A stretch of 64,000 nucleotides of DNA from Gammaproteobacteria bacterium. Lineage in GTDB: Bacteria > Pseudomonadota > Gammaproteobacteria > HK1. The position numbers and the translations under genes were made by a program. How positions within the stretch are numbered: the first letter of the stretch is position 1; each line of letters opens with the position of its first letter. The stretch is from contig OZ241870.1 in NCBI GenBank assembly GCA_965202875.1, forward strand, positions 3,693,069 to 3,757,068. Reading direction: 5' to 3'. The notes under the pieces were generated by a model that did no database searches, was not told the origin of the DNA, and saw nothing but the letters and a program-made list of their open reading frames with translations. Below, piece by piece: positions 15,734 to 64,000 of the stretch.

Positions 15734-16207
15734 GGAGGGCAGGGTACGGCCATTGCTTCATCGGCGCCAGCTTCCCAACGGGCCCGCCGGACTCGCACCC
15801 GAAAACAGGCGCAATCCAGGCGGCGATGGCGATGAACGCGCCCCGATGATGCCGACGATGCTCGCTCCCTGGTCCTTTGTCCGTGAAGTCATCGACAAAA
15901 CGACGAATTTTTTCCGGGCCGGGTCGGGATCCACACGGCGCGGCAGATACGCGCTTCGAGGTTGGCGACATCGGCACGCAGAGCGACGATGCCCGTCTTC
16001 GTGGCATGTTCGCCACGTCCGGGGACGGTGACTTGACGCAACGCTTCGGCGTGCGCTTCTGCCTGCCGCGTTCGACTCCCGCGGCTTCGAGGCCGCGGAC
16101 GATGCGGCGGGTGTCGAAGGCTGTGGCATTTGCCGTGATCCATTCGACGGAACGTTGCGCGAGCAACTTCAACACGGTTCGGCAATCGTCGTTGGAAAGT
16201 CGTTGAG

Positions 16208-16957
16208 ATGGAAACGTTGCCCAGCGGAAGGGTCCGGGGCCGGCGGGCGTCTCCGGTGCGGGCCTTCGCCACCATCAACGCCGCCGTCGAAGCGGAAGGG
16301 CTCGCCAGCCGTGGCGCGTTCCACGTCGATGCGGAGGACGCGGTTCCACGCTTCGGCGATGGTGCGCCCGCCCGGACGCTGGTCCTCGTCGGCAACGCCG
16401 GTCCCCGGATGTGGCCCGCCTTCGCGGCCTCCGAAGAGGCGAACGACGGCGCGCCGGACCCACTCGACCGGTGGAGCCGGCGGATCGTCACCCGGCTCGC
16501 GTGCACCCTGGACGCGGGCGCCCACTTCCCGTTCGGCGGTCCGCCCTGGCTGCCTTTCATCCGTTGGGCGCAACGGGCCGGCCCCGTCTACCCCTCCCCC
16601 ATCGGACCGTTGGTGCACCCGGACCACGGCCTGTGGCATGCGTACCGGGGCGCTCTCGCGTTCCGCGAACGTCTCGACCTTCCGCCGCGCGACGAGCGCC
16701 CGAGCCCTTGCGAGCGCTGCGCCGAACGACCGTGCCTCTCGGCCTGTCCCGCCGGTGCGTTCTCCGCGAGCGGCTACGATGTCGATGCCTGTGTCGCGCA
16801 CACTGCAAGCCGCGCGGGCGTCCGATGCCTCGACGGGGGATGCCTCGCCCGCCACGCCTGCCCGGCCGGACGCGATGCGGTATACGGCGCCCCGCAGGCG
16901 GCGTTTCACATGCGGGCGTTTCTCGCCGCAAGACAGTGCGCACGGCGAAGCAAGTAA
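16208..16957 (+). CDS. 4Fe-4S ferredoxin-type domain protein (function unknown)
   Basis: C-terminal Cys clusters 'CERCAERPCLSACPAG' and 'CLDGGCLARHACPAG'; the N-terminal domain could not be assigned. Start codon uncertain. Confidence 0.55.
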   Translation: METLPSGRVRGRRASPVRAFATINAAVEAEGLASRGAFHVDAEDAVPRFGDGAPARTLVLVGNAGPRMWPAFAASEEANDGAPDPLDRWSRRIVTRLACTLDAGAHFPFGGPPWLPFIRWAQRAGPVYPSPIGPLVHPDHGLWHAYRGALAFRERLDLPPRDERPSPCERCAERPCLSACPAGAFSASGYDVDACVAHTASRAGVRCLDGGCLARHACPAGRDAVYGAPQAAFHMRAFLAARQCARRSK

Positions 16958-17375
16958 GCGGTCACCCGGGTCTCTGCCCGGATTCTGCGGGCTCCGGTGC
17001 GATCCGGGCATCCGATGAAGCCCGAGGGCAGCGTAGTGAAACCGCCCGGTCCGGTGCCGTGGCGGTCCGCCGGCCGGCGGGTTCCTGCGGACCGGGCCGC
17101 CGATCGAGCGCCGGGCACGGGAGTGCGGGGGGTTCCGCCGAGTCTTCGCCGCTTCACGTCCATACGCCCGCGAGCCGATCGGATCTATGATGCGTTCCTC
17201 TCGGGGGAGCCGCTCGCCGATCCTCCGCGGACGGCGAGGGTTTGCCGGCCCCGCCGTCACCGCCTTCGGGGCTGGTGGGCAGCCGGCCGCTCGTCCGGCG
17301 GGGCCCGGTGGGCCGGGCCGGAGGCCGCATGGCAGGACGCGGCGACGGCAGGGCAGTCCGAACGGGGCAGCAGAG

Positions 17376-17466
17376 GCAGGGCAAACAGACAGGGCAAACA
17401 GACAGGGCAAACAGGCAGGGCAAACAGGCAGGGCAAACAGGCAGGGCAAACAGGCAGGGCAACCGA
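17376..17466. repeat. 13-bp direct tandem repeat (CAGGGCAAACAG + 1 variable nt), ~7 copies, ending ~24 bp before the downstream SBP start codon
   Basis: Seen directly: GCAGGGCAAACAG A CAGGGCAAACAG A CAGGGCAAACAG G ... CAGGGCAACCGAAACA. Unit length is not a multiple of 3 and the repeat is non-coding (intergenic, 5' of the gene at 17490). Confidence 0.9.
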
Positions 17467-25811: not shown

Positions 25812-25885
25812 GGGTCTTCTCCAGGGGGGTCTTCTCCAGGGGGGTCTTCTCCAGGGGGGTCTTCTCCAGGGGGGCTTCTTCAGGG
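25812..25885. repeat. 15-bp direct tandem repeat GGGGTCTTCTCCAGG (minus-strand reading CCTGGAGAAGACCCC), ~4.5 copies, abutting the mmsA start codon
   Basis: Seen directly at 25812-25885; the last unit supplies the mmsA Shine-Dalgarno sequence (GGAGAAG), so each unit carries an SD-like motif. Confidence 0.85.
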
Positions 25886-51819: not shown

Positions 51820-52530
51820 TCATTCGTCGAACGCGACGTTCACGCGGCGGTTCTGCCGCCCCTTCTTCTCGATCTTCGTCACCCGCACCTTTCCGATCTC
51901 GCCGGTGGATGCCACGTGCGTCCCGCCGCAAGGCTGCAAGTCCACACCCGCGATTTCGAGCAACCGCACCCTGCCCCGGCCGCGTGGAGGCGCGACCGAC
52001 ATCGTCCGCACCAGGGAGGGGTTCGCGTCGAGCTCCTCTTCGCTGATCCAGCGCGGGGTGGCAGGATGGTTTTCGGCGACGAGCCGATTGAGCCGCGTGG
52101 TGAGGTCCTCCTTGTCAAGGGTGCTCTCGGGCAGGTCGAAATCGAGCCGGCCGCTCCCGTCCCGGATGGACCCGCCGGTCACGGGGGCGGGGATGAGCGA
52201 AGACAGAAGGTGCATGCACGTGTGCATCCGCATCAGCCGGTGCCGTCGGTCCCAGTCGATGCGGGCCGTCGCCTCCGAGCCGACGATGTCCGGATCGGCC
52301 GGGGTCTCCGGGACGTGCACGATCTCTCCCGCGGCGTCACCCTTGCGGGTGTCGACGATTCGGATGACGGTCCCGTCGCCGAAGGCCAGCGCGCCGCGGT
52401 CTCCCGGCTGGCCGCCCCCGGTCGGGTAGAAGACGGTGCGGTCGAGACGTATCCCTGCACCGTCCACCGCCGTGATGCGCGCGTCGCACGAGCGCGTGTA
52501 GGCGTCCTGTCTGAACACTTCCTCGGTCAT
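51820..52530 (-). CDS. alanyl-tRNA editing protein AlaX-like (Ser-tRNA(Ala) deacylase)
   Basis: Zinc-binding editing motifs 'HTCMHLLS' and 'CGGTHV' in a 236-aa protein lacking a synthetase catalytic domain. Confidence 0.8.
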   Translation of the reverse strand: MTEEVFRQDAYTRSCDARITAVDGAGIRLDRTVFYPTGGGQPGDRGALAFGDGTVIRIVDTRKGDAAGEIVHVPETPADPDIVGSEATARIDWDRRHRLMRMHTCMHLLSSLIPAPVTGGSIRDGSGRLDFDLPESTLDKEDLTTRLNRLVAENHPATPRWISEEELDANPSLVRTMSVAPPRGRGRVRLLEIAGVDLQPCGGTHVASTGEIGKVRVTKIEKKGRQNRRVNVAFDE

Positions 52531-52771
52531 GATCCCTGCTCCGTATCGATTGCCGCGGGTGGGTCCGCGGCCCGCTGCCGCCACCGTGCGCCCCCACGAT
52601 CCGGCGCACGCCCGCTCGGCATATCGGGTACGTGTCTGCCGGCCGCGTGTCCGGTGCAAAGCGTCCGCTTGCGGTGGAAGCAATTGAGGAAACGGCCCCT
52701 CGTCCGCCCGGCGGCGGCTCGCGGGGCCTTCGAATGCACGCCGTCCCCGCGGGGACGGCGCGGGCAATGGC

Positions 52772-52996: not shown

Positions 52997-53284
52997 TGAA
53001 ACTCCCGAGGTCGTTGTGGGGTGTGGACTCCCATCGGCGAGCACCCTGTGCCGTCTGGGCGCATCAAGCGTACCCTAGCCCATGTCCGGGGTTGTCTCAA
53101 TTGATCCGGCGAGGGCCGTCGCCCGTTCGCCCGGAACGGGGCCTTGTGGCTCGATCGGAGAGGAGATCGTTTCCGGCACGGCCTCGACGTCGAGACGACG
53201 CTGCTCTCCCGAACGCTCCGGTCCGCCGCGGCCATCCGGCAAGTCAAGCGCGAGGAGAGCGCGGTCATCCCCGCACCACGACGA

Positions 53285-53696
53285 CGTGCAGCCGCCGCGG
53301 GCCGTGCGCGCCTTCGAGGATCACGAGCTCGACGTCGCCGGTCTTCGAGGTGCGGGACGATCCGCGATTCGCGCAGCACCACGACGTGATCCTCGGGCAG
53401 GAAGTTCAGCGTCGTCGGGTGCTCCGGCCCGGAGAGCAGCATCATGCTCCCGGTCTCCGCGATGCCGGCGAACGCGCCGGTCACGCTGAGCCGGTCCGAC
53501 CCACGGGCCGCGCGCCGCTCGACGGCGAGACGGTTCGACCACTGCACGCCGTCGAGCCCCGGGGCCACCACGATCGACTCGCCGAGGTCGTGCTCCTCGA
53601 CGTGGCGCAGCACGACCCCCGAGACCTCGGCGAGGGTGGACACCCTGGAGATCCGGGCGTGGACCGCATCCGCCTTGCGGACGAAGAGATCGACCG
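53285..53696 (-). pseudogene. lutC: lutC (LUD domain) 3'-portion remnant carrying a 74-bp frameshifting deletion
   Basis: Aligns to the intact lutC at 55936-56586 ('...AEVSGVVLRHVEEHDLGESIVVAPGLDGVQWSNRLAVERRAARGSDRLSVTGAFAGIAETGSMMLLSGPEHPTTLNFLPEDHVVVLRESRIVPHLED'). It lacks the segment between two CTTCGA repeats present in the intact copy, shifting the frame. Confidence 0.6.
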
Positions 53697-53824
53697 GATC
53701 GTCGCCGAGGGCCGGTCTGAGATTCGGCGCCGGGACGGAAGAGATCGACGAGGCAGGTGACGAGCAGCCCGACCCGGGGGCGGCTGGTCGGGTCGTCGGG
53801 AGACTGCCGGATTCTGTCGGACAC
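53697..53824 (-). pseudogene. lutA: lutA 5' fragment (first ~42 codons) fused to the lutC remnant
   Basis: Nucleotide-identical to the 5' end of the intact lutA at 58880-59004 ('MSDRIRQSPDDPTSRPRVGLLVTCLVDLFRP'), then jumps directly into the lutC 3' portion. Confidence 0.6.
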
Positions 53825-54198
53825 GATGGAGGCTATGCCGCGGGTTGTCGCCCGATTCTATCCGAGCCGGTGGAAAGCTCCGCCGGCAAAAAGTGGCGGC
53901 GCCGCCTGGATTGATCTCGAAAGGTGGGTATGGGGCAATCCATTCCAGACTCACCACAGGAACAGCCCGATGAATACGGACTACCTCATCGTCGGCTCGG
54001 CGATTGCACGTATCGCCTTCGCGGGCGCGTCGCGGGAATGGACCTGTGAGCGCCGAGCCGAGGACATCGGGCCCAGAGCCGTTCCGGATCAACTCGAAGA
54101 GCTGGCGGTGGGCGTAGCCGCCGCCCGCGGTGTCGTCTTCGACGTTCGATGCCTGCCGGAATGGCCGGCGTCAGCGCGATCGTCCCCACCCCGATACG

Positions 54199-55848
54199 CT
54201 ACAGCGTCCAGACGGCCACCTTGCGACCGTCCTGCCGGCGACCGCATCCACCCGCCTCGCTCCCGCGCTCCTCCGTGCCCTCACTCCTCCGCCGACGTTT
54301 CCCGGTTCGGCGGTCGAACACCACCAGATGCCCTTCCTCCGCTCCGCACTGCACCATATACCCCAACGTCTGCTCCACCCCGCGATCGATGGTCCACGCG
54401 AGGCTCTTGCGGTCCGAGTCCCGCAACACCTTGCACTCCACCACGAAACGCTCCCACAGGTCCGAGGGCTGCCCCGCCTCGCGCGGCCACAGCACCAGCA
54501 GGTCCGTCCGGCCGCGCCCCAGCCCGTACTCCCGCTCGATGCGTCCGTCCCCGTTCACCACCCGCTGCAAGTACGTCTGCAACAGGAGCTGCGGCCCCGC
54601 CTCACGGTAGTCGAAGCGGCCCATCCAGTGCTCGGCGTGCTCCCCGAAGAAGGTGCGGAACGCCCTCAGCAGCTTCGTCATGTCCAGACGGCCGGCGCCG
54701 TCCACGTACCACGCCGCCTGGACGTTGACCAGACGCTCCTGCGCCGCCGCCGTCAGCTCGCGCGGCACCACCTCCGCATAGATCGGGTTCGCCATGCGGA
54801 TGCCCCGGCCCGGAGCGATCAGCCCCAGGTCGCGCACGTAGTCGACGTCGCGCTGGAAGCCGATGTCCGACACCCCGCAGCCCGGCTCCTCCGCATCGCT
54901 CAGCAGCGGCTCGATGACCCGCCGCACCCGCTCTTCTTCCAGCTTGTGCGCCAACTGGTCCAGATGCGTGCGCCGCGAGAGGATGAGCTCCTCCCGCGCC
55001 GCGTAGACGTCGTCCACCTCGATGGAACGCGAGCGGTCCCTTCCGGCCTTGTCGTCGAAGCACGCCCCCGCGCACAGCGCGTTCACCAGCCACGGCTGGC
55101 CCCGGGTCTGCGTCCATACCATCTCCAACGCCGCCGGGGAGAAGCGCTGCTTGGTCTCCTCGGTGTGCTGCGCCATCAGCGCCCGCGTCTCCGCTTCCGT
55201 GAAGTCGCCCATGCGCAACGACTTCGCCGCGACGTTGAAGGGGCTGCCGCCGGCAATCACTTCGCCGGTGCTCGACCGGATGCGGTAGTCGCGGATGTCG
55301 CGCACCCCGCACAGCACCACGCTCTGCGGGAAGGCTTCGGGGCGTTGCTCGTAGCCGGCGCGGAGCTGGCGCAGCACCGAGAGCAGGGTGTCGCCGACCA
55401 GCGAATCGATCTCGTCGACCAGCAGCACCAGCGGCACCGGGTTCGCCAAGCACCAGTGCATCAACACGTGCCGCAAGGCGTCGTTGGGACCCACCTTGGC
55501 CAGCATGTCCGGCCAGACCCTGTCCGGGTAGTCGTCGCCCAGCAGCAGCGCCCGCGACGCCATCATGCTCAGGATGGCGCGGATGCCCTCGGCCACGTCG
55601 TCGCGCGCCACCTGGGCGACCTCGACGTTCACGTTCACGCAGCGGAAGCTGCCCACTTCGCCGCTGTTGAGCAGGTCGCGCAGGGCGATGAGCGCGGAGG
55701 TCTTGCCGGTCTGGCGCGGCGCGTGCAGCACGAAGTAGCGTTCCGCCCGAATCAGGGCCAGGAATTCGCCGACGTTCACGCGATCCAACGGCCGGATCGC
55801 ATAGTGCTTGTCCGGGCGCACCGGCCCTTCGGTGTTGAAGAAGCGCAT
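54199..55848 (-). CDS. AAA-ATPase-like + C-terminal PD-(D/E)XK nuclease-fold protein, paralogue 1 of 3
   Basis: 549 aa. Walker A 'HAPRQTGKTSAL', Walker B 'LVLLVDEIDSL', C-terminal 'GRTDLLVLWP...ERFVVECKVL' (D...E.K). 87 bp downstream of lutC, same strand. Confidence 0.8.
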   Translation of the reverse strand: MRFFNTEGPVRPDKHYAIRPLDRVNVGEFLALIRAERYFVLHAPRQTGKTSALIALRDLLNSGEVGSFRCVNVNVEVAQVARDDVAEGIRAILSMMASRALLLGDDYPDRVWPDMLAKVGPNDALRHVLMHWCLANPVPLVLLVDEIDSLVGDTLLSVLRQLRAGYEQRPEAFPQSVVLCGVRDIRDYRIRSSTGEVIAGGSPFNVAAKSLRMGDFTEAETRALMAQHTEETKQRFSPAALEMVWTQTRGQPWLVNALCAGACFDDKAGRDRSRSIEVDDVYAAREELILSRRTHLDQLAHKLEEERVRRVIEPLLSDAEEPGCGVSDIGFQRDVDYVRDLGLIAPGRGIRMANPIYAEVVPRELTAAAQERLVNVQAAWYVDGAGRLDMTKLLRAFRTFFGEHAEHWMGRFDYREAGPQLLLQTYLQRVVNGDGRIEREYGLGRGRTDLLVLWPREAGQPSDLWERFVVECKVLRDSDRKSLAWTIDRGVEQTLGYMVQCGAEEGHLVVFDRRTGKRRRRSEGTEERGSEAGGCGRRQDGRKVAVWTL

Positions 55849-55935
55849 GGGCCGATTATGACACCTGCCGCGCCGGTTTCCGGGTTGCGCTCGGCCGAGA
55901 AAATCGCGGTACGGTCTCGCCGGGCGGCGGGCCGG

Positions 55936-56586
55936 TCATTCCCGCACCACGACGACGTGCAGCCGCCGCGGACCGTGCGCGCCTTCGAGGATCACGAGCT
56001 CGACGTCGCCGGTCTTCGAAGGGCCGCAGATGAGGTTGACGGTGCGCGGCATCGTGGCGCGCTCCTTGCGGAGCATGGCCCAGGCGTCTTCGAGGTGCGG
56101 GACGATCCGCGACTCGCGCAGCACCACGACGTGATCCTCGGGCAGGAAGTTCAGGGTCGTCGGATGCTCCGGCCCGGAGAGCAGCATCACGCTCCCGGTC
56201 TCCGCGACCCCCGCGAACGCGCCGGTCACGCTGAGCCGGTCCGAGCCACGGGCCGCGCGCCGCTCGACGGCGAGACGGTTCGACCACTGCACTCCGTCGA
56301 GCCCCGGGGCCACCACGATCGACTCGCCGAGGCCGTGCTCCTCGACGTGGCGCAGCACGACCCCGGAGACCTCGGCGAGGGCGGAGACCCTGGAGATCCG
56401 GGTATGGACCGCATCCGCCTTGCGGACGAAGAGATCGACCGGATCGTCGCCGAGGGCCGGCCTGAGATTCGGCGCCGGGGCGGCGAGGCGGCGGTCGAGC
56501 ACGTCGCGCACGCTTTCCGGCAACGGCCCGGCCCGGTGCAGCGAGCGCCGCACCGAGGCCAGGATGCGTTCCCTTGCGATGCTCAT
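55936..56586 (-). CDS. lutC: lactate utilisation protein C (LUD domain, YkgG family)
   Basis: 216 aa 'MSIARERILASVRRSLHR...LLSGPEHPTTLNFLPEDHVVVLRESRIVPHLEDAWAMLRKERATMPRTVNLICGPSKTGDVELVILEGAHGPRRLHVVVV'. 4-bp overlap with lutB. Confidence 0.8.
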   Translation of the reverse strand: MSIARERILASVRRSLHRAGPLPESVRDVLDRRLAAPAPNLRPALGDDPVDLFVRKADAVHTRISRVSALAEVSGVVLRHVEEHGLGESIVVAPGLDGVQWSNRLAVERRAARGSDRLSVTGAFAGVAETGSVMLLSGPEHPTTLNFLPEDHVVVLRESRIVPHLEDAWAMLRKERATMPRTVNLICGPSKTGDVELVILEGAHGPRRLHVVVVRE

Positions 56587-58022
56587 CCCGTTCCGCCCGC
56601 TGCTCGTTCCTTCCGCCGCTTCGCCCAGGCCGCCATGAACGTCTCGCCCGCGGGCGCGGGCAGGTCGCGGGTCGCGGTCCAGCCTCCGGCCAGGGGCAGC
56701 CGGCGGAAGCGGCCACGGAAGCGTCCGAGCAGGCCGAGGACGCGCATCGCGAGCGACGCCACGAAGCGGTAGAGCGCCGGGCGGCGCGCGGCGAAGGCCC
56801 ATATCCGCAACCCCAACCGGGCGCGCGGCGGCGTGAGGCGTTCGTCGAACTCGCGCTCGCGCAGCCGGCGGATCATGTCCGGGAGCGGGATCTCCACCGG
56901 GCACACCTCCCGGCACCGCCCGTTGAGGGTGCAGGCGTTGGGGAGGTCGCGGGCCTCGTCCAGCCCGACCATCAGCGGGGTCAGCACCGAGCCCATCGGA
57001 CCCACGTACACCCAGCCGTAGGCGTGCCCGCCCACCGCGTGGTAGACCGGACAGTGGTTCATGCACGCGCCGCAGCGGATGCAGCGCAGCATCTCGTGGA
57101 ACTCGTTGCCGAGCATCTGCGAGCGGCCGTTGTCGAGCAGCACCACGTGGTACTCGCCGGGGCCGTCGAGGTCACCCGCGCGGCGCGGCCCGCTCGACAG
57201 CGTTGTGTAGGCCGACGCCTCCTGCCCGGTCGCGCTTCTCGCCAGCACCCGCAGGAGGGTGCTCATGTCCTCGAGGGTGGGGATCACCTTCTCGATCCCC
57301 GTGGTCACCACGTGCACGCGCGGCAGGGTGTTGGTCAGGTCGCCGTTGCCCTCGTTGGTGACGATGACGCTCGACCCGGTCTCCGCGACCAGGAAGTTCG
57401 CGCCGGTGATCCCCACGTCCGCGCTCTGGAACTTCTCGCGCAGCACGGTGCGCGCCTCGCCGACCAGCGCGGTCGGCTCGGTCTGGCGTTCGGTGAGCCC
57501 GTACCGCGCGTGGTGCGCGTGGAAGAGGTCGGCGATCTGGTCCCGGGTCTTGTGGATGGCGGGGGCGATGATGTGGCTCGGCGGCTCGTTCGCGAGCTGG
57601 ATGACGTACTCCCCGAGATCGGTCTCGACCGGCTCGAAGCCCGCGGCTTCCAGGGCCTCGTTGAGCGCGATCTCCTCGCCCACCATGGACTTCCCCTTGG
57701 TGACCCGCTTCGCGCCCGCCGCGCGGCAGACGTCGAGGACGATCGCCCGCGCCTCGGCCGGGGTGCCCGCCCAGTGCACGTGCCCGCCGTGCTCGCGGAC
57801 CTGCGCTTCGAAGCGTTCGAGGTAGTGGTCGAGGTGCTGGAGGGTGTGCTCCTTGATCTCGCGCGCGATGCGCCGCAGCTCCGGGTACTCGGGCAGTGCT
57901 TCGACGGCGGCGCGGCGCTTGTCGATGAACCCCGTCCGGGCCCGCGCCATCGCCCGCGCGAGGTCGGGGTTCCGCAGCCCGGCCCGGGCCCGGGCCGGGA
58001 AGTCGTGGGCGGCGGACTTCAT
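56583..58022 (-). CDS. lutB: lactate utilisation protein B (4Fe-4S cluster-binding, YkgF family)
   Basis: 479 aa; LUD domain followed by two ferredoxin motifs 'CIRCGACMNHCPV' and 'CTLNGRCREVCPV'. Start at MKSAAHDF (58022). Confidence 0.85.
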   Translation of the reverse strand: MKSAAHDFPARARAGLRNPDLARAMARARTGFIDKRRAAVEALPEYPELRRIAREIKEHTLQHLDHYLERFEAQVREHGGHVHWAGTPAEARAIVLDVCRAAGAKRVTKGKSMVGEEIALNEALEAAGFEPVETDLGEYVIQLANEPPSHIIAPAIHKTRDQIADLFHAHHARYGLTERQTEPTALVGEARTVLREKFQSADVGITGANFLVAETGSSVIVTNEGNGDLTNTLPRVHVVTTGIEKVIPTLEDMSTLLRVLARSATGQEASAYTTLSSGPRRAGDLDGPGEYHVVLLDNGRSQMLGNEFHEMLRCIRCGACMNHCPVYHAVGGHAYGWVYVGPMGSVLTPLMVGLDEARDLPNACTLNGRCREVCPVEIPLPDMIRRLREREFDERLTPPRARLGLRIWAFAARRPALYRFVASLAMRVLGLLGRFRGRFRRLPLAGGWTATRDLPAPAGETFMAAWAKRRKERAAGGTG

Positions 58023-58209
58023 CGTCCGGGCTCCCCGAGTCCGCACTCCCCGAACACGCGCTCCCCGGTCCTGCTCCTGGCGCCCGTGCCGGCGGGCGCC
58101 TTCGCCACGGGGCGCGTACTCGCCGGGTACGCCGGGTATACCCTCGTCGCGGGTTCACGGTTTCGCGGCGCGGTCCAGGCGCGGCCCGGAAAATCGTACG
58201 TAGCGGATT

Positions 58210-59004
58210 TCATCGACCCTGCTCCCCGATTCCACGTTCGGTCATGCCGGCGAGCACCTCCGCCACGTGGAACACCCGCACCGGATGCGATTCGCGCGTG
58301 AGCCTGCCCGCGATGTTCATCAGGCAGCCCAGATCGCCGCCGAGCAGCACCCCGGCGCCGGTGGCGAGGACGTGGGCGCATTTCTCGTCGACGAGGCGGG
58401 TGGAGATCTCCGGGTACTTCACGCAGAACGTCCCGCCGAAGCCGCAGCAGGCGTCCGAATCGCGCATCTCCGCCACCGTCAGCCCCCCCACCGACGCGAG
58501 CAGGCGGCGCGGCTGGCCGCGTACCCCCATCTCGCGCAGGCCCGAGCAGGAGTCGTGGTAGGTCGCGTCCGCCTCGAAGCGCGCGGCGACCTCGCGCACG
58601 CCGAGGACGTCGACGAGGAAGCCCGCGAGCTCGTGCGTGCGTTCGGCCAGCGCCTGCGCCCGCCCGTGCCAGTCGGCGCCGGTGGGGAACAGCCGGGGGT
58701 AGTGCTCGCGCAGCATCCCGGCGCAGGAGCCGGACGGCGCGACGACGTAGTCGAAGGGCTCGAACGCCTCGACGGTACGCTTCGCGATGGCCCGCGCGGT
58801 GGCGGAGTCGCCGCCGTTGTACGCCGGCTGGCCGCAGCAGGTCTGCACGGCGGGCGCCTCCACGACGCAGCCCGCGTCCTCGAGCAGCCTGACCGCCGCG
58901 AACCCGACCGCGGGACGGAAGAGATCGACGAGGCAGGTGACGAGCAGCCCGACCCGGGGGCGGCTGGTCGGGTCGTCGGGAGACTGCCGGATTCTGTCGG
59001 ACAC
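58210..59004 (-). CDS. lutA: lactate utilisation protein A ((Fe-S) oxidoreductase, CCG domains, YkgE family)
   Basis: 'VGLLVTCLVDLF', 'CCGQPAYNGG', 'HDSCSGLREM' and 'CCGFGGTF' CCG-domain motifs. Confidence 0.85.
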   Translation of the reverse strand: MSDRIRQSPDDPTSRPRVGLLVTCLVDLFRPAVGFAAVRLLEDAGCVVEAPAVQTCCGQPAYNGGDSATARAIAKRTVEAFEPFDYVVAPSGSCAGMLREHYPRLFPTGADWHGRAQALAERTHELAGFLVDVLGVREVAARFEADATYHDSCSGLREMGVRGQPRRLLASVGGLTVAEMRDSDACCGFGGTFCVKYPEISTRLVDEKCAHVLATGAGVLLGGDLGCLMNIAGRLTRESHPVRVFHVAEVLAGMTERGIGEQGR

Positions 59005-59376
59005 GATGGAGGCTATGCCGCAGGTTGTCGCCCGATTCTATCCGAGCCGGTGGAAAGCTCCGCCGGCAAAGTGGCGGCGCCGCCTGGATTGATCTCGAAA
59101 GGTGGGTATGGGGCAGTCCATTCCAGACTCACCACAGGAACAGCCCGATGAATACGGACTACCTCATCGTCGGCTCGGCGATTGCACGTATCGCCTTCGC
59201 GGGCGCGTCGCGGGAATGGACCTGTGAGCGCCGAGCCGAGGACATCGGGCCCAGAGCCGTTCCGGATCAACTCGAAGAGCTGGCGGTGGGCGTAGCCGCC
59301 GCCCGCGGTGTCGTCTTCGACGTTCGATGCCTGCCGGAATGGCCGGCGTCGGCGCGGTCGTCCCGACCCCGATATG

Positions 59377-61026
59377 CTACAGCGTCCAGACGGCCACCTT
59401 GCGACCGTCCTGCCGGCGACCGCTTCCGCCCGCCTCGCTCCCGCGCTCCTCCGTGCCCTCACCCCTCCGCCGACGCTTCCCGCCGCGGCGGTCGAACACC
59501 ACCAGATGCCCTTCCTCCGCTCCGCACTGCGCCATGTACCCCAACGTCTGCTCCACCCCGCGATCGATGGTCCACGCGAGGCTCTTGCGGTCCGTATCCC
59601 GCAACACCTTGCACTCCACGACGAACCGCTCCCACAGGTCCGAGGGCTGCCCCGCCTCGCGCGGCCACAGCACCAGCAGGTCTGTCCGGCCGCGCCCCAG
59701 CCCGTACTCCCGCTCGATGCGTCCGCCCCCGTTCACCACCCGCTGCAAGTACGTCTGCAACAGGAGCTGCGGCCCCGCCTCCCGGTAGTCGAAGCGGCCC
59801 ATCCAGTGCTCCGCGTGTTCGCCGAAGAAGGTGCGGAACGCACTCAGCAGCTTCGTCATGTCCAGACGGCCGGCGCCGTCCACGTACCACGTCGCCTGGA
59901 TGTTGACCAGACGCTCCTGCGCCGCCGCCGTCAGCTCGCGCGGCACCACCTCCGCGTAGATCGGGTTCGCCATGCGGATGCCCCGGCCCGGCGCGATCAG
60001 CCCCAGGTCGCGCACGTAGTCGACGTCGCGCTGGAAGCCGATGTCCGACACCCCGCAGCCCGGCTCCTCCGCATCGCTCAGCAGCGGCTCGATGACCCGC
60101 CGCACCCGCTCTTCTTCCAGCTTGTGCGTTAGCTGGTCCAGATGCGTGCGCCGCGAGAGAATCAACTCCTCCCGCGCGGCGTAGACGTCGTCCATTTCGA
60201 TGGCCCGCGAGCGGTCCCTTCCGGCCTTGTTGTCGAAGCACGCCCCCGCGCACAGCGCGTTCACCAGCCACGGCTGGCCCTGGGTCTGCGTCCACACCGC
60301 CTCCACCGCCGCCGGGGAGAAACGCTGCCCGGTCTCCTCCGTGTGCTGCGCCATCAGCGCCCGCGTCTCCGCTTCCGTGAAGTTGCCCATGCGCAGCGAC
60401 TTCGCCGCGACGTTGAAGGGGCTGCCGCCGGCAATCACTTCGCCGGTGCTCGACCGGATGCGGTAGTCGCGGATGTCGCGCACCCCGCACAGCACCACGC
60501 TCTGCGGGAAGGCTTCCGGGCGTTGCTCGTAGCCGGCGCGGAGCTGGCGCAGCACCGAGAGCAGGGTGTCGCCGACCAGGGAGTCGATCTCATCGACCAG
60601 CAGCACCAGCGGCACCGGGTTCGCCAAGCACCAGTTGGACAGCAGATCGCCCAGCGCATCGTCCGGTCCCGATGCTTCCAGCACGGTGCGCCACGACTCG
60701 TGCGGAAAGCCGTCGCCCGACAGCCGCGCCCGCATGGCCAGCCGGCTCAGGATGGCGCGCATGCCGCGCGCCACGTCGTCGCGCGCCACCTGGCCGACCT
60801 CCACGTTGGTATGCACGCAACGGAAATTGCCCGCTTCGCCGCTGTTCAGGAAGTCGCGCAGGGCGATGAGGGCGGAGGTCTTGCCGGTCTGGCGCGGCGC
60901 GTGCAGCACGAAGTAGTGCTTGGCCCGAATCAGCCCCAGCAGATCTTCCACGTCCATCCGGTCCAGAGACGGAATGGCGTAGTGGTCGTCCGGACGCACC
61001 GGCCCTGCCGTGTTGAAGAAGCGCAT
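59377..61026 (-). CDS. AAA-ATPase-like + PD-(D/E)XK protein, paralogue 2 of 3
   Basis: 549 aa, ~90% identical to paralogue 1 but with a distinct N-terminal block ('MRFFNTAGPVRPDDHYAIPSLDRMDVEDLLGLIRAKHY'). Start at MRFFNT (61026); the longer listed ORF is an artefact. Confidence 0.8.
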   Translation of the reverse strand: MRFFNTAGPVRPDDHYAIPSLDRMDVEDLLGLIRAKHYFVLHAPRQTGKTSALIALRDFLNSGEAGNFRCVHTNVEVGQVARDDVARGMRAILSRLAMRARLSGDGFPHESWRTVLEASGPDDALGDLLSNWCLANPVPLVLLVDEIDSLVGDTLLSVLRQLRAGYEQRPEAFPQSVVLCGVRDIRDYRIRSSTGEVIAGGSPFNVAAKSLRMGNFTEAETRALMAQHTEETGQRFSPAAVEAVWTQTQGQPWLVNALCAGACFDNKAGRDRSRAIEMDDVYAAREELILSRRTHLDQLTHKLEEERVRRVIEPLLSDAEEPGCGVSDIGFQRDVDYVRDLGLIAPGRGIRMANPIYAEVVPRELTAAAQERLVNIQATWYVDGAGRLDMTKLLSAFRTFFGEHAEHWMGRFDYREAGPQLLLQTYLQRVVNGGGRIEREYGLGRGRTDLLVLWPREAGQPSDLWERFVVECKVLRDTDRKSLAWTIDRGVEQTLGYMAQCGAEEGHLVVFDRRGGKRRRRGEGTEERGSEAGGSGRRQDGRKVAVWTL

Positions 61027-61112
61027 GGGCCGATTATGACACTGCCGCGCTGGTTTCCGGGTTGCGCTCGGCCGACGAAATCGCGGTGCGGTCTCGCCGG
61101 GAGGCGGGCCGG

Positions 61113-61330
61113 TCATTCCCGCACCACGACGACGTGCAGCCGCCGCGGACCGTGCGCGCCTTCGAGGATCACGAGCTCGACGTCGCCGGTCTTCGAGGGG
61201 CCGCAGATGAGGTTGACGGTGCGCGGCATCGAGCCGCGCTCCTTGCGGAGCAAGGCCCATGCGTCTTCGGGACGGGCGACGATTCGCGACTCGCGCAGCA
61301 CCACGACGGAGGCCTGGGACAGGAAGTTCA
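61113..61330 (-). pseudogene. lutC: lutC 3'-terminal fragment (~70 codons) abutting the third AAA-ATPase paralogue
   Basis: '...LNFLSQASVVVLRESRIVARPEDAWALLRKERGSMPRTVNLICGPSKTGDVELVILEGAHGPRRLHVVVVRE'. Only the C-terminus is present and it joins directly to the 3' end of the next AAA gene with no spacer. Confidence 0.6.
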
Positions 61331-61359
61331 GCGGCGGCGGATGCTCCGGCCTCGATACG

Positions 61360-63009
61360 CTACAGCGTCCAGACGGCCACCTTGCGACCGTCGTGCCGGC
61401 GACCGCTTCCACCCGCCTCGCTCCCGCGCTCCTCCGTGCCCTCACTCCTCCGCCGACGTTTCCCGGTTCGGCGGTCGAACACCACCAGATGCCCTTCCTC
61501 CGCTCCGCACTGCACCATATACCCCAACGTCTGCTCCACCCCGCGATCGATGGTCCACGCGAGGCTCTTGCGGTCCGAGTCCCGCAACACCTTGCACTCC
61601 ACCACGAAACGCTCCCACAGGTCCGAGGGCTGCCCCGCCTCGCGCGGCCACAGCACCAGCAGGTCCGTCCGGCCGCGCCCCAGCCCGTACTCCCGCTCGA
61701 TGCGTCCGCCCCCGTTCACCACCCGCTGCAAGTACGTCTGCAACAGGAGCTGCGGCCCCGCCTCACGGTAGTCGAAGCGGCCCATCCAGTGCTCCGCATG
61801 TTCGCCGAAGAAGGTGCGGAACGCCCTCAGCAGCTTCGTCATGTCCAGCCGGCCATCGCCGTCCACGTACCACGTCGCCTGGACGTTGACCAGACGCTCC
61901 TGCGCCGCCGCCGTCAGCTCGCGCGGCACCACCTCCGCATAGATCGGGTTCGCCATGCGGATGCCCCGGCCCGGAGCGATCAGCCCCAGGTCGCGTACGT
62001 AGTCGACGTCGCGCTGGAAGCCGATGTCCGACACCCCGCAGCCCGGCTCCTCGGCATCGCTCAGCAGCGGCTCGATGACCCGCCGCACCCGCTCCTCCTC
62101 CAGCTTGTGCGCCAACTGGTCCAGATGCGTGCGCCGCGAGAGGATGAGCTCCTCCCGCGCCGCGTAGACGTCGTCCACCTCGATGGAACGCGAGCGGTCC
62201 CTTCCGGCCTTGTTGTCGAAGCACGCCCCCGCGCACAGCGCATTCACCAGCCACGGCTGGCCTTGCGTCTGCGTCCACACCGCCTCCACCGCCGCCGGGG
62301 AGAAACGCTGCCCGGTCTCCTCCGTGTGCTGCGCCATCAGCGCCCGCGTCTCCGCTTCCGTGAAGTCGCCCATGCGCAGCGACTTCGCCGCGACGTTGAA
62401 GGGGCTGCCGCCGGCAATCACTTCGCCGGTGCTCGACCGGATGCGGTAGTCGCGGATGTCGCGCACCCCGCACAGCACCACGCTCTGCGGGAAGGCTTCG
62501 GGGCGTTGCTCGTAGCCGGCGCGAAGCTGGCGCAGCACCGAGAGCAGGGTGTCGCCGACCAGGGAGTCGATCTCGTCCACCAGCAGCACCAGCGGCACCG
62601 GGTTCGCCAGGCACCAGTTGGACAGCAGATCGCCCAGCGCATCGTCCGGCCCCGATGCTTCCAGCACGGCGCGCCACGACTCGTGCGGAAAGCCGTCGCC
62701 CGACAGCCGCGCCCGCATGGCCAGCCGGCTCAGGATGGCGCGCATGCCGCGCGCCACGTCGTCGCGTGCCACCTGGCCGACCTCCACGTTGGTATGCACG
62801 CAGCGGAAATTGCCCGCTTCGCCGCTGTTCAGGAAGTCGCGCAGGGCGATGAGCGCGGAGGTCTTGCCCGTCTGGCGCGGCGCGTGCAGCACGAAGTAGC
62901 GTTCCGCCCGAATCAGGGCCAGGAATTCGCCGACGTTCACGCGATCCAACGGCCGGATCGCATAGTGCTTGTCCGGGCGCACCGGCCCTTCGGTGTTGAA
63001 GAAGCGCAT
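61360..63009 (-). CDS. AAA-ATPase-like + PD-(D/E)XK protein, paralogue 3 of 3 (mosaic of paralogues 1 and 2)
   Basis: 549 aa. Residues 1-57 match paralogue 1, 58-~330 match paralogue 2 ('FLNSGEAGNFRCVHTNVEVGQ...'), and the C-terminal third matches paralogue 1 again ('KVLRDSDRK...YMVQCG...RRTGKRRRRSEG'). Confidence 0.8.
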   Translation of the reverse strand: MRFFNTEGPVRPDKHYAIRPLDRVNVGEFLALIRAERYFVLHAPRQTGKTSALIALRDFLNSGEAGNFRCVHTNVEVGQVARDDVARGMRAILSRLAMRARLSGDGFPHESWRAVLEASGPDDALGDLLSNWCLANPVPLVLLVDEIDSLVGDTLLSVLRQLRAGYEQRPEAFPQSVVLCGVRDIRDYRIRSSTGEVIAGGSPFNVAAKSLRMGDFTEAETRALMAQHTEETGQRFSPAAVEAVWTQTQGQPWLVNALCAGACFDNKAGRDRSRSIEVDDVYAAREELILSRRTHLDQLAHKLEEERVRRVIEPLLSDAEEPGCGVSDIGFQRDVDYVRDLGLIAPGRGIRMANPIYAEVVPRELTAAAQERLVNVQATWYVDGDGRLDMTKLLRAFRTFFGEHAEHWMGRFDYREAGPQLLLQTYLQRVVNGGGRIEREYGLGRGRTDLLVLWPREAGQPSDLWERFVVECKVLRDSDRKSLAWTIDRGVEQTLGYMVQCGAEEGHLVVFDRRTGKRRRRSEGTEERGSEAGGSGRRHDGRKVAVWTL

Positions 63010-63096
63010 GGGCCGATTATGACACCTGCCGCGCTGGTTTCCGGGCTGCGCTCGGCCGAGAAAATCGCGGTACGGTCTCGCCGGACGGCGGGCCGG

Positions 63097-63318
63097 TCAT
63101 CCCCGCACCACGACGACGTGCAGCCGCCGCGGACCGTGCGCGCCTTCGAGGATCACGAGCTCGACGTCGCCGGTCTTCGAGGGGCCGCAGATGAGGTTGA
63201 CGGTGCGCGGCATCGTGGCGCGCTCCTTGCGGAGCATGGCCCAAGCGTCCTCGAGGTGCGGGACGATCCGCGACTCGCGCAGCACCGAAGCCAGGATGCG
63301 TTCCCTTGCGATGCTCAT
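63097..63318 (-). pseudogene. lutC: lutC with large internal in-frame deletion (first 12 codons joined to last ~60)
   Basis: Encodes 'MSIARERILASV|LRESRIVPHLEDAWAMLRKERATMPRTVNLICGPSKTGDVELVILEGAHGPRRLHVVVVRG'. Followed by a 44-bp direct duplication (63290-63333 / 63340-63383) of the lutB-lutC junction sequence. Confidence 0.6.
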
Positions 63319-63363
63319 CCCGTTCCGCCCGCTGCTCGTTCCTTCCGCCGCCCCTTGCGATGC

Positions 63364-63756
63364 TCATCCCGTTCCGCCCGCTGCTCGTTCCTTCCGCCGC
63401 TTCGCCCAGGCCGCCATGAACGTCTCGCCCGCGGGCGCGGGCAGGTCGCGGGTCGCGGTCCAGCCTCCGGCCAAGGGCAGCCGGCGGAAGCGGCCACGGA
63501 AGCGTCCGAGCAGGCCGAGGACGCGCATCGCGAACGACGCCACCAAGCGGTAGAGCGCCGGGGGGCGGGCGGCGAAGGCCCACGTCCGCAACCCCAACCG
63601 GGCGCGCGGCGGCGTGAGGCGTTCGTCGAACTCGCGCTCGACGCGGCGCAGTTGCGGGTACTCGGGCAGTGCTTCGACGGCGGCGCGGCGCTTGTCGATA
63701 AATCCCGTCCGGGCCCGCGCCATCGCCCGCGCGAGGTCGGGGTTCCGCAGCCCGGC
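63364..63756 (-). pseudogene. lutB: lutB remnant: 3' ~270 bp joined to 5' ~150 bp (internal ~1 kb deleted), 5' end fused to unrelated lower-GC sequence
   Basis: 3' part aligns to 56583-56860, then jumps to the segment matching 57880-58000 ('...LRVLGQCFDGGAALVDKSRPGPRHRPREVGVPQPGPG'). At 63757 similarity ends and a different sequence continues to the window edge (ORF start at 63990). Confidence 0.55.
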
Positions 63757-64000
63757 CCGGGCGCAGAATGAAATGCTTTCGTTGGCGGGATGCTCGGGAT
63801 TGCAACATGGTGTGTATCGCACGAAAATGCCCGGATGAAGATCAAGCATGCGGGATTGCGGAGGCTCCATGAGCGAGGCGACGCCCGACGGCTGAATCCC
63901 GGCCACGTCCGGCGCATCCGTCGCGTACTGGCCGATCTCGACGTAGCGCGCGACCCGCATGACCTCGATCAGCCCGGCTACCGGCTGCATCCTCTGGCAG

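What the first reader, a model, noticed from the sequence alone, without database searches (positions are those of the whole stretch)
53285..63760. Tandemly amplified, actively recombining array: three AAA-ATPase/PD-(D/E)XK paralogues interleaved with one intact and five decayed lutABC pieces
A ~5.2-kb unit (spacer - lutA - lutB - lutC - AAA/PD-(D/E)XK gene, all on the minus strand) is present once intact (54199-59376) and flanked by partial units. To the right: AAA copy 2; a lutC 3' stub fused to AAA copy 3; a lutC with an internal deletion; a lutB with an internal deletion; and a 44-bp duplication. To the left: a lutA'-'lutC fusion stub with a 74-bp deletion between CTTCGA direct repeats. 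The three ATPase-nuclease paralogues are 85-95% identical, and copy 3 is a clear mosaic (N-terminus like copy 1, middle like copy 2, C-terminus like copy 1), implying gene conversion or unequal crossing-over between copies. Walker A/B plus a C-terminal D...E.K nuclease fold, multi-copy diversification, and placement in an unstable repeat are all reminiscent of immune or conflict genes rather than lactate metabolism. The fixed placement 87 bp downstream of lutC, inside the amplified unit, is unusual.
Basis: seen in the sequence. Interest (0 to 1): 0.8.

Follow-up and report, generated by a model that had tools for sequence, protein, structure and literature searches.

The report
Recombining array of ATPase-nuclease gene copies
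Three copies of a stand-alone ATPase-nuclease gene have repeatedly recombined and dragged pieces of a neighbouring lactate-utilisation operon with them; the gene belongs to a little-known family found in at least 10-16 copies per genome in four related marine chromosomes and shared at 82-90% identity between bacterial phyla.

Summary
Self-alignment shows one intact unit (spacer-lutA-lutB-lutC-ATPase, period 5,178 bp), a 1,983-bp sub-repeat, and three 549-aa paralogues that are 89-95% identical. It also shows decayed lut fragments, microhomology deletions, and a mosaic copy 3.

Minor corrections:
- The small duplication is 49 bp, not 44.
- PF09820 does not appear for the window proteins; PF08011 is far below threshold.

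The lut linkage is incidental. It occurs in only 4 of 77 related loci. Everywhere else the gene sits alone among unrelated genes.

The larger finding is the family:
- More than 539 loci in species-representative genomes.
- At least 16 dispersed copies in one 5.4-Mb chromosome.
- Same-strand arrays of two or three complete copies at about 16 loci, each with its own local spacer.
- 82-90% protein identity between phyla.
- Purifying selection (dN/dS 0.27).
- A conserved TGnCATAAT motif 6 nt before the ATG.
- A 48-aa variable segment shuffled among copies.

Best reading: a diversified, ATP-dependent DNA nuclease whose paralogues undergo unequal crossing-over and gene conversion. A defence or conflict role is plausible but untested.

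The parts
63763..64000 (-). Native upstream flank of the lut operon. It lies outside the array and is joined directly to a 5'-truncated lutB.
   Evidence: In relatives L039 and L001 this segment lies upstream of lutA or lutB' (L039 3226-3429 ~ window 64000-63798; L001 4235-4607 ~ 64000-63628).
63628..63762 (-). lutB 5' fragment (matches 57855-57989)
   Evidence: Self-BLAST 94.1%.
63352..63640 (-). lutB 3' end and lutC start fragment (matches 56571-56859). About 995 bp of lutB is deleted between this piece and the previous one, with a 13-bp overlap.
   Evidence: Self-BLAST 97.6%.
63303..63400 (.). Perfect 49-bp tandem duplication, two copies. The single copy in the intact unit is at 56571-56619.
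   Evidence: the repeat finder family D11; TRF period 49, 2.0 copies, 100% match.
63086..63286 (-). lutC 3' fragment. About 445 bp of lutC is missing upstream of it.
   Evidence: Part of 61346-63286 ~ 59363-61302 and of 61350-63286 ~ 54189-56125.
61360..63009 (-). ATPase-nuclease copy 3 (549 aa), a mosaic of the copy 1 and copy 2 types.
   Evidence: ORF; informative-site track; AAA_22 and AAA_35 hits.
61095..61351 (-). lutC 3' stub. It begins 8 nt after the stop of copy 3 and runs, after the 87-nt spacer, into copy 2.
   Evidence: Self-BLAST 53249-53353 ~ 61098-61201 and 53341-53429 ~ 61263-61351; spurious 627-aa ORF 59377-61260.
59377..61026 (-). ATPase-nuclease copy 2 (549 aa)
   Evidence: ORF and family N-terminus MRFFNT; Pfam.
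59068..59367 (-). Spacer, copy A: the 3' flank of the ATPase gene joined to the region upstream of lutA.
   Evidence: 99% identical to 53890-54189 (family D5).
58210..59004 (-). lutA, intact (264 aa, two CCG domains)
   Evidence: Pfam CCG E 1.5e-27.
56583..58046 (-). lutB, intact (487 aa)
   Evidence: TIGR00273 472 bits against a cut-off of 444.8; LUD_dom, Fer4_8 and LutB_C hits.
55936..56586 (-). lutC, intact (216 aa). Its ATG overlaps the lutB stop (ATGA).
   Evidence: LUD_dom E 1e-26; start located.
55855..55863 (-). TGT-CATAAT extended -10-like motif, ending 6 nt before the ATG of copy 1. The same motif is at 61033-61041 (copy 2) and 63016-63024 (copy 3).
   Evidence: The motif is conserved in most of 102 copies from 24 contigs. 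Its function as a promoter of a leaderless mRNA is inferred.
54199..55848 (-). ATPase-nuclease copy 1 (549 aa). Walker A is at aa 43-51 (55696-55722) and Walker B at aa 142-148 (55405-55425). The nuclease motifs are E..D..ExK, at aa 436-474 (54427-54543).
55444..55587 (-). Variable segment of copy 1 (aa 88-135): three helices between strand beta-2 and the Walker B strand.
   Evidence: Highest entropy in the family. Mean identity is 60% here against 84% for the backbone, with correlation r = 0.29. dS is 0.58-0.63 here against 0.14-0.17 in the ATPase core between copy 1 and copies 2 and 3.
53890..54189 (-). Spacer, copy B
   Evidence: 99% identical to 59068-59367.
53731..53890 (-). lutA 5' fragment (160 bp)
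   Evidence: 99% identical to 58911-59070 (family D9).
53262..53738 (-). lutC remnant. It is joined to lutA' through an 8-bp microhomology and carries a 74-bp deletion between GTCTTCGA repeats. It ends at the lutC stop, which is the left edge of the array.

Best explanation
The region is a hotspot of segmental duplication and gene conversion, built around a solo gene.

Shown:
- The gene carries a conserved -10-like motif and encodes an AAA+ ATPase of the archaeal-ATPase/ORC-Cdc6/STAND type, a helical middle region, and a C-terminal PD-(D/E)XK nuclease.
- It belongs to a family that is multi-copy in several related chromosomes, shared between phyla, and under purifying selection.
- Members form local same-strand tandem arrays at many unrelated loci.
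- Unequal homologous recombination between adjacent paralogues has duplicated the gene together with whatever lay beside it, here the lutABC operon.
- Gene conversion has shuffled an N-terminal block and a 48-aa variable helical segment between copies.
- Microhomology-mediated deletions have eroded the redundant lut copies, leaving one intact operon.

Inferred:
- The protein assembles on DNA in an ATP-dependent way. The variable helices sit where the DNA-contacting initiator-specific motif sits in ORC, Cdc6, MuB and TnsC.
- It cuts DNA with its nuclease domain. In effect it would be a single-chain analogue of McrB plus McrC.
- Paralogues would differ in what they recognise, which makes the family most likely a diversified defence or conflict nuclease repertoire.
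- The TGnCATAAT motif 6 nt before the ATG probably drives a leaderless transcript, which would let the gene work wherever it lands.
For: Array anatomy.

Mosaics: copy 3 in the window. Different mosaics and array layouts occur in independent assemblies L001 and L077.

Family: more than 539 loci in GTDB species representatives. At least 16, 13, 13 and 10 copies lie on four chromosomes. Same-strand arrays of two or three complete copies occur at about 16 loci, with locus-specific spacers. Protein identity between phylum-level lineages is 82-90%. dN/dS is 0.27 overall and 0.17-0.18 in the ATPase and nuclease cores. The variable segment is uncoupled from the backbone: r = 0.29, and 119 pairs have backbone identity of at least 92% but segment identity of 65% or less.

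Promoter-like motif.

lut linkage in only 4 of 77 loci, and no conserved partner gene.

Weak defence hints:
- Distant relatives hit PADLOC PDC-S01 (6 of 64) and LmuA (4 of 64).
- Three loci (two independent places) have CRISPR arrays within 8 kb.
- Restriction-type neighbours include ResIII, N6_Mtase, McrBC and Type_ISP.
Against: - The window proteins match no PADLOC or NCBIfam model, so no defence function is shown.
- Roughly 90% of immediate neighbours are ordinary metabolic or transport genes, so the copies are not concentrated in defence islands.
- dN/dS in the variable segment is 0.42-0.45, raised but below 1, so positive selection is not demonstrated.
- The promoter and leaderless reading rests on a consensus match only. 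The sigma-70 scan, which needs a -35 box, finds nothing.
- Nothing explains how copies reach new loci.
Confidence: 0.6

Rival explanations
1. The gene is an autonomous selfish element. Its nuclease and ATPase promote its own duplication and spread, in a homing-like or otherwise unrecognised single-gene mobility mechanism. The arrays and dispersed copies reflect that drive rather than any benefit to the host.
For: - At least 10-16 dispersed copies lie on each of four chromosomes, and there are more than 539 loci overall.
- Identity between phyla is 82-90%.
- There is no partner gene.
- Each copy carries the same conserved -10-like motif.
- Tandem arrays arise independently at many loci.
- In L054 three copies sit head to tail, separated only by GGCC.
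- MuB and TnsC, which are transposition ATPases, are among the structural neighbours.
Against: - No terminal repeats, target-site duplications or conserved target were found.
- Similarity between copies at different loci ends at the stop codon in 88% of pairs and about 15-30 nt upstream of the ATG. With dS near 0.5, flanks would be unalignable anyway, so this test cannot decide.
- No clean filled-versus-empty site was found.
- The gene is absent from phage records and nearly absent from 2.9 million viral contigs. Only distant relatives sit on plasmids.
- The copies are old and diverged, not a recent burst.
Confidence: 0.25
2. The protein is a chromosome or plasmid maintenance, recombination or repair factor, for example an ATP-dependent structure-specific nuclease working with recombinases. 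Its high copy number would reflect dosage or sub-functionalisation.
For: - Relatives at 36-39% identity lie on cyanobacterial plasmids, on several plasmids within each of two Pseudanabaena strains (8 records). In the two examined, the gene sits directly upstream of a tyrosine recombinase.
- NucS and Holliday-junction resolvase Hjc are among the C-terminal fold neighbours, and 7 of 64 relatives hit NucS_C.
Against: - The recombinase linkage is absent in Aulosira and in all 76 loci of this clade.
- Repair factors are not normally kept in more than 10 diverged copies, shuffled in a variable segment, or transferred between phyla.
Confidence: 0.1
3. The ATPase-nuclease is a dedicated accessory of lactate utilisation, and its position after lutC is functional.
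For: The same 87-nt spacing after lutC is seen in three copies in the window and in L001 and L077.
Against: - The spacing is copied by the duplication itself.
- L039 and L048 have a roughly 1-kb ORF between lutC and the gene.
- 73 of 77 loci have no lut genes.
- The domain content (DNA-type AAA+ plus restriction-endonuclease fold) has no link to LutABC chemistry.
Confidence: 0.02
4. The array is an assembly artefact, caused by mis-joined or collapsed reads from mixed strains.
For: The source is probably a metagenome assembly, and repeats of 2-5 kb at 92-95% identity are error-prone. Read data cannot be inspected here.
Against: - The copies differ by 5-9% at the DNA level, so they are not duplicated identical sequence.
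- Two independent assemblies of relatives carry the same kind of array, and one (L001) shares the flank-to-lutB' junction.
- Same-strand arrays of two or three complete copies are seen at about 16 other loci in chromosome-level assemblies.
Confidence: 0.03

Closest known systems
DUF1703-type proteins (Pfam PF09820 AAA-ATPase_like + PF08011 PDDEXK_9), for example the 25-paralogue expansion in Cardinium cCpun (PMC6387759)
   Same: - Same two-part architecture: N-terminal P-loop ATPase and C-terminal PD-(D/E)XK nuclease, about 520-550 aa.
- Large paralogue expansions in some genomes.
- Recombination between paralogues, suspected horizontal transfer, and unknown function.
- Some 35-55% relatives of the window protein hit PF08011 (15 of 64, best 4.7e-7) and PF09820 (11 of 64, best 1e-6).
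   Different: - The window proteins do not reach either model's threshold. PF08011 gives 12 bits against 25.5, and PF09820 gives no hit.
- The ATPase is closest to AAA_35, AAA_22 and AAA_16.
- Paralogues here are much more alike than in Cardinium: about 84% mean backbone identity (aa 1-87 and 136-511) against 39%.
- They are shared across phyla and carry a conserved upstream motif.
Archaeal Walker-type ATPases PAB2304 (2qen) and SSO1545 (2fna), Pfam ATPase_2
   Different: They have no nuclease domain. Sequence identity is 13-14%.
McrBC (AAA+ McrB plus PD-(D/E)XK McrC) and other ATP-dependent restriction enzymes
   Different: - This is one polypeptide, not two.
- The ATPase is of the ORC/STAND-like type, not the McrB GTPase.
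- There is no separate DNA-reading domain.
- No activity is known.
Bacterial STAND/NLR-like defence proteins with nuclease effectors (Avs1-3)
   Different: - The domain order is reversed: the nuclease is C-terminal.
- There is no TPR or other repeat sensor.
- The protein has 549 aa, against 1,500-2,000.
LutABC lactate-utilisation operon (the passenger genes)
   Same: All three genes match their families. lutB scores above the TIGR00273 cut-off.
   Different: Nothing unusual in the intact copy. The extra copies are truncated remnants.

Membership tests
LutABC | LutA with two CCG cysteine-rich domains | tested here: met
   PF02754, two stretches, E 1.5e-27.
LutABC | LutB/LldF iron-sulfur protein above the TIGR00273 cut-off | tested here: met
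   472 bits against 444.8.
LutABC | LutC with a LUD domain, in the gene order lutA-lutB-lutC | tested here: met
   PF02589 E 1e-26. The order is as expected and the lutB stop overlaps the lutC start.
AAA+ / P-loop ATPase (ORC-Cdc6/STAND-like, Pfam AAA_35 and AAA_22) | Walker A GKT/S and Walker B hhhhDE | tested here: met
   APRQTGKTS and LLVDEID are nearly invariant in 102 copies.
AAA+ / P-loop ATPase (ORC-Cdc6/STAND-like, Pfam AAA_35 and AAA_22) | AAA+ fold with a C-terminal helical lid and winged-helix region | tested here: met
PD-(D/E)XK nuclease superfamily | Alpha-beta-beta-beta-alpha-beta core carrying D...(D/E)xK | tested here: met
DUF1703 (PF09820 + PF08011) | N-terminal match to PF09820 at the gathering score | tested here: not met
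   No hit for the window proteins even at E <= 10. 11 of 64 distant relatives hit weakly.
DUF1703 (PF09820 + PF08011) | C-terminal match to PF08011 at the gathering score | tested here: not met
   E 0.15-0.3, 11.5-12.5 bits against 25.5. 15 of 64 relatives hit, best 4.7e-7.
Known anti-phage defence systems (PADLOC-DB 2.0) | Match to a system protein model | tested here: not met
   No hit for the three window proteins at E <= 0.1. Only weak domain-level hits of distant relatives to PDC-S01, LmuA and mad8.
Known anti-phage defence systems (PADLOC-DB 2.0) | Protection against phage or plasmid | not testable with these tools
   Needs an experiment.
Transposable element / insertion sequence | Transposase or integrase within the unit | tested here: not met
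   No recurrent neighbour gene in 76 loci. IS66 transposase is a neighbour at only 2 loci.
Transposable element / insertion sequence | Defined termini (inverted repeats or hairpins) and target-site duplication | tested here: inconclusive
   Shared sequence ends at the stop codon and about 15-30 nt upstream of the ATG. Flank folding is no better than in shuffles. Copies are too diverged (dS near 0.5) for flanks to be informative.
STAND NTPase immune receptors (Avs/NLR-like) | C-terminal repeat sensor domain (TPR, WD40 or LRR) | tested here: not met
   The 549-aa model has no repeat region. The C-terminus is the nuclease.

The most novel reading that the evidence does not exclude
The gene is a new kind of single-gene genetic agent. 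It would be a self-promoted ATPase-nuclease that multiplies within chromosomes and moves between bacterial phyla in one marine community without any transposase or integrase. Alternatively, it is a hyper-expanded innate-immune receptor-nuclease repertoire whose DNA-contact segment is diversified by gene conversion among many paralogues. In either case the arrays, like the one in this window, would be a by-product of its own activity.
Probability: 0.25. Interest if true: 0.8.

Novelty: new variant of a known kind. Interest (0 to 1): 0.6.

Why it matters
The array by itself is ordinary genome mechanics: unequal crossing-over between paralogues followed by decay of redundant copies. It also shows how a repeated gene can duplicate and then erode a housekeeping operon.

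The gene family is the interesting part.
- It is an uncharacterised ATPase-nuclease kept intact by selection in at least 10-16 copies per chromosome in four related chromosomes.
- It is exchanged between Gammaproteobacteria, Acidobacteriota, Binatia, Alphaproteobacteria and Spirochaetes at 82-90% identity.
- It carries a conserved -10-like motif that may serve as its own promoter.
- It has a variable segment at a likely DNA-contact site that is shuffled among copies.

If it is a defence nuclease, it would be an unusually large, recombining specificity repertoire in bacteria. If it is selfish, it would be a mobile gene with no known mobility machinery. Both ideas can be tested directly with the cloned gene.

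Tried and rejected
- **Terminal hairpins or attC-like structures next to the gene.** Fold energies of the -62..-18 and +1..+45 segments equal those of shuffled controls. Dropped.
- **A conserved partner gene** (transposase, integrase, methylase, immunity). Clustering of all flank ORFs in 76 loci found none. Pfam scans of the nearest upstream and downstream genes were heterogeneous.
- **Carriage by phages or viruses.** No tblastn hit in 50,697 phage records. No close hit and one 24%-identity hit in IMG/VR.
- **Filled versus empty sites.** Orthologous locus pairs (L002/L004, L020/L021, L011/L029, L024/L050) differ in copy number or spacing, but none gives a clean insertion boundary.
- **Sequence search of the PDB.** Only Walker-A-level matches.
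- **tRNA and Rfam scans of the window.** Nothing found.
- **Sigma-70 and terminator consensus scan of the array.** Nothing found.
- **Exact look-up of the window protein in public assemblies.** Not on record.
- **Literature.** No paper cites the related accessions or describes this clade. The only useful parallel is the Cardinium DUF1703 expansion.
- **Sponge-symbiont origin.** I suspected this from the mix of taxa but could not support it. Azotimanducaceae (HTCC2089) are described as mainly free-living marine bacteria.

Full report
**1. The observation**

Read on the minus strand, the order is:
- the native upstream flank (64000-63763);
- a lutB remnant in two pieces (63762-63628 and 63640-63352, about 995 bp deleted between them);
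- a perfect 49-bp tandem duplication (63303-63400);
- a lutC 3' piece (63286-63086);
- ATPase-nuclease copy 3 (63009-61360);
- a lutC 3' stub (61351-~61095);
- copy 2 (61026-59377);
- a 300-bp spacer (59367-59068);
- intact lutA (59004-58210), lutB (58046-56583) and lutC (56586-55936);
- copy 1 (55848-54199);
- the spacer again (54189-53890);
- 160 bp of lutA (53890-53731), joined through an 8-bp microhomology to a lutC remnant (53738-53262). That remnant carries a 74-bp deletion between GTCTTCGA repeats.

The long period is 5,178 bp and the short one 1,983 bp.

The lut genes match their families. lutB scores 472 bits against the TIGR00273 cut-off of 444.8. The lutB stop overlaps the lutC start. 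The lutC stop lies exactly 87 nt before each ATPase ATG.

The three 549-aa proteins are 89%, 93% and 95% identical. Copy 3 is a mosaic: like copy 1 at nt 1-170, like copy 2 at nt 175-~800, and mostly like copy 1 from nt 822.

The only corrections are these:
- The small duplication is 49 bp, not 44.
- The array's right edge is at 63762/63763.
- The 627-aa ORF at 59377-61260 is a read-through from the lutC stub.

**2. Not an assembly artefact**

The copies differ by 5-9% at the DNA level. Two independent assemblies of close relatives carry the same kind of array in a different arrangement. These are L001 (chromosome OZ242023.1) and L077 (a 28-kb contig of ERZ25070167), both 92-96% identical to the window. 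L001 shares the flank-to-lutB' junction, so the array predates the split of these lineages.

At sites that distinguish copy 1 from copy 2, the positional counterparts in L001 and L077 show other mosaics of the same two sequence types. Recombination between the copies has therefore happened repeatedly.

**3. The lut linkage is incidental**

In more distant relatives (L039 in OY282378.1, L048 in OY282353.1) there is one intact lutABC. It is preceded by the segment that in the window lies at 63798-64000. It is followed by a roughly 1-kb ORF with no Pfam match and then by a single ATPase gene of about 83% DNA identity.

Of 77 related loci, only L001, L039, L048 and L077 have lut sequence. The 87-nt spacing is simply copied with each duplication.

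**4. The protein**

Pfam gives only generic ATPase matches: AAA_22 at 29 bits and AAA_35 at 24 bits. PF09820 does not appear even at E <= 10, and PF08011 reaches E 0.15-0.3. PADLOC and NCBIfam give nothing.

Among 35-55% relatives, 15 of 64 hit PDDEXK_9 and 11 of 64 hit PF09820. The family is therefore a sibling of the DUF1703 architecture, not a member by Pfam's thresholds.

**5. The family**

This is the main result.
- The word-indexed search saturated at 8,000 hits. The best 120 are all 79-97% identical to the window protein.
- The exhaustive search found 4,690 clusters at 50% identity with E <= 1e-3, and 883 with E <= 1e-30.
- In species-representative genomes, more than 539 loci encode a relative. 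Only the best 76 were returned.
- Within those 76 alone, OZ242023.1 (5.37 Mb) has at least 16 full-length copies scattered around the chromosome. OY282378.1 and OY282433.1 have at least 13 each, and OY282353.1 has at least 10.
- Same-strand arrays of two or three complete copies occur at about 16 loci. Each array has its own spacer made of local DNA. In L054 the three copies are separated only by GGCC. The arrays therefore arise in place, again and again.
- Chromosome-level MAGs labelled Vicinamibacterales, Alphaproteobacteria, Binatia and Spirochaetia carry copies. These are respectively 90%, 86%, 85% and 82% identical in protein to their nearest copy in another lineage. For the first three that copy is gammaproteobacterial; for Spirochaetia it is in Vicinamibacterales. 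This is as close as paralogues within one genome.
- No phage record and essentially no viral contig carries the gene.
- On plasmids only 22-40% relatives are found, mostly cyanobacterial.

**6. What is conserved around the gene**

Between copies at different loci, similarity ends at the stop codon in 88% of pairs. It extends about 15-30 nt upstream of the ATG.

That upstream stretch is a near-invariant GCGCGGCAaG-TGC-CATAAT-CGGCCC-ATG. In the window it reads TGT-CATAAT at 55855-55863, 61033-61041 and 63016-63024. It reads as an extended -10 element ending 6 nt before the start codon, with no Shine-Dalgarno sequence. I infer a leaderless, self-promoted transcript.

With dS near 0.5 between copies, neutral flanks would be unrecognisable. 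The sharp boundaries therefore reflect selection on the ORF and this upstream motif. They say nothing either way about element termini. Flank hairpins are no better than chance.

**7. Selection and the variable segment**

Across 1,200 pairs, dN/dS is as follows:

| Region | dN/dS |
|---|---|
| Whole gene | 0.27 |
| ATPase core | 0.18 |
| Nuclease | 0.17 |
| aa 88-135 | 0.42 |
| C-terminal tail | 0.57 |

The copies are working genes.

Residues 88-135 form three helices between strand beta-2 and the Walker B strand. They are the most variable part of the protein. Mean identity there is 60%, against 84% for the backbone, and it correlates only weakly with backbone identity (r = 0.29). In 119 pairs the backbone is at least 92% identical but this segment is 65% or less. 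The segment falls into a few discrete types that recur in different genomes and loci.

In the window, copy 1 carries one type and copies 2 and 3 carry another. dS across the segment is 0.58-0.63, against 0.14-0.17 in the ATPase core. The segment therefore has an older, separate history and is moved by gene conversion.

**8. Context**

No gene recurs next to it. The nearest upstream and downstream genes at 72 and 71 loci are mostly metabolic or transport genes. A minority, very roughly one in ten, are restriction- or defence-type genes or transposases. These include ResIII (3), N6_Mtase (3), McrBC (2), Type_ISP_C (2), a C5 methylase, SLFN AlbA_2 (2) and IS66 (2).

A 26-repeat CRISPR array ends about 450 nt upstream of the tandem pair in L020. 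Its orthologue L021 also has one, and another array lies in L003.

Distant relatives weakly hit the PADLOC candidate PDC-S01 and LmuA. These are hints of a defence setting, not proof.

**9. Explanation**

Shown:
- A solo ATPase-nuclease gene family with many diverged copies.
- Repeated local tandem duplication.
- Gene conversion between neighbours.
- Co-duplication and later microhomology-mediated decay of lutABC in this lineage.

Inferred:
- The protein is an ATP-dependent DNA nuclease whose paralogues differ in recognition through the variable helices. In effect it is a one-chain McrBC-like enzyme with an ORC/STAND-type motor.
- The family is a defence or conflict repertoire.

The main rival is that the gene is itself selfish. 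Copy number, spread between phyla, the conserved upstream motif and the lack of any partner fit that reading. No termini, target or empty site could be found, and the copies are old. A repair or recombination role is a weaker rival. It is suggested by the tyrosine recombinase that follows the distant homologue on two Pseudanabaena plasmids. That linkage is missing elsewhere.

**10. Comparison with known systems and novelty**

The closest described case is the DUF1703 (PF09820 + PF08011) expansion in the symbiont Cardinium cCpun. It has 25 recombining paralogues and unknown function (PMC6387759).

This clade shares the architecture and the behaviour. It differs in four ways:
- It fails the Pfam membership tests.
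- Its ATPase is closest to AAA_35.
- Its copies are much more alike and are shared across phyla.
- It has a conserved -10-like upstream motif and a shuffled variable segment.

I found no paper on this clade. I rate it a new variant of a known kind.

The array in the window is ordinary genome mechanics. The interest lies in the family.

The environmental source of the related MAGs could not be established. The labelled taxa point to a marine community.

Noticed in passing
L020 5912-7548 (OY282378.1); orthologous shorter array at L021 ~5723-6267; another at L003 ~14907-16461: CRISPR arrays lie near the ATPase genes. In L020 there are 26 copies of the 28-nt repeat GTAATCGTTCCCCATGAGGGGTTAGGAG at 64-65-nt spacing. 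The array ends about 450 nt upstream of a tandem pair of ATPase-nuclease genes. The orthologous array in L021 has only 9 repeats.
   Followed up: partly
L054 4726-9692 (OY282455.1): Three full-length copies sit head to tail, separated only by GGCC (TAG-GGCC-ATG). The second and third copies therefore lack the usual upstream motif. GGCC also flanks the array on both sides, which suggests duplication through that 4-nt microhomology.
   Followed up: partly
L078 (NZ_CP112877.1) 4995-7493 and L079 (NZ_AP017562.1) 4995-7505: On two Pseudanabaena plasmids examined, a 36-38% homologue of the ATPase-nuclease is followed 13 nt later by a tyrosine recombinase. Eight plasmid records from two strains each carry such a homologue. 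The pairing is absent in Aulosira (L080).
   Followed up: partly
L039 6853-7950 and L048 6892-7953: An ORF of 353-366 aa with no Pfam match sits between lutC and the single ATPase gene in these relatives. It is missing in the window lineage, where only about 23 bp separate the two homology blocks.
   Followed up: partly
L001 11617-13493, L048 9770-12437, L077 4817-6799: In the relatives, genes for a Schlafen AlbA_2 protein (with an HATPase_c_4 domain where Pfam domains were listed, in L077) and for a DUF488-like protein follow the ATPase array. The window's left flank is different: it holds an AlaX-like tRNA_SAD protein at 51820-52767. The array therefore sits at a synteny break.
   Followed up: partly
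window 59377-61260: This is a spurious 627-aa ORF. The lutC stub, read in another frame, runs in frame into ATPase copy 2. A gene caller would probably report an N-terminally extended protein.
   Followed up: yes
window 31528-31883: An 87-bp tandem repeat (about 4 copies, 67-78% matches) lies inside a 936-aa minus-strand ORF (30596-33406).
   Followed up: no
window 17374-17462 and 25812-25885: Two short, nearly perfect tandem repeats: 13 bp x 6.8 copies (AGGCAGGGCAAAC) and 15 bp x 5 copies (GGGTCTTCTCCAGGG). The second lies between two minus-strand ORFs.
   Followed up: no
P0174 (993 aa, from the representative search): The best-scoring 50%-cluster representative is about twice the normal length and matches the query in two stretches. 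It is probably a fused tandem pair or a protein with an extra N-terminal half.
   Followed up: no
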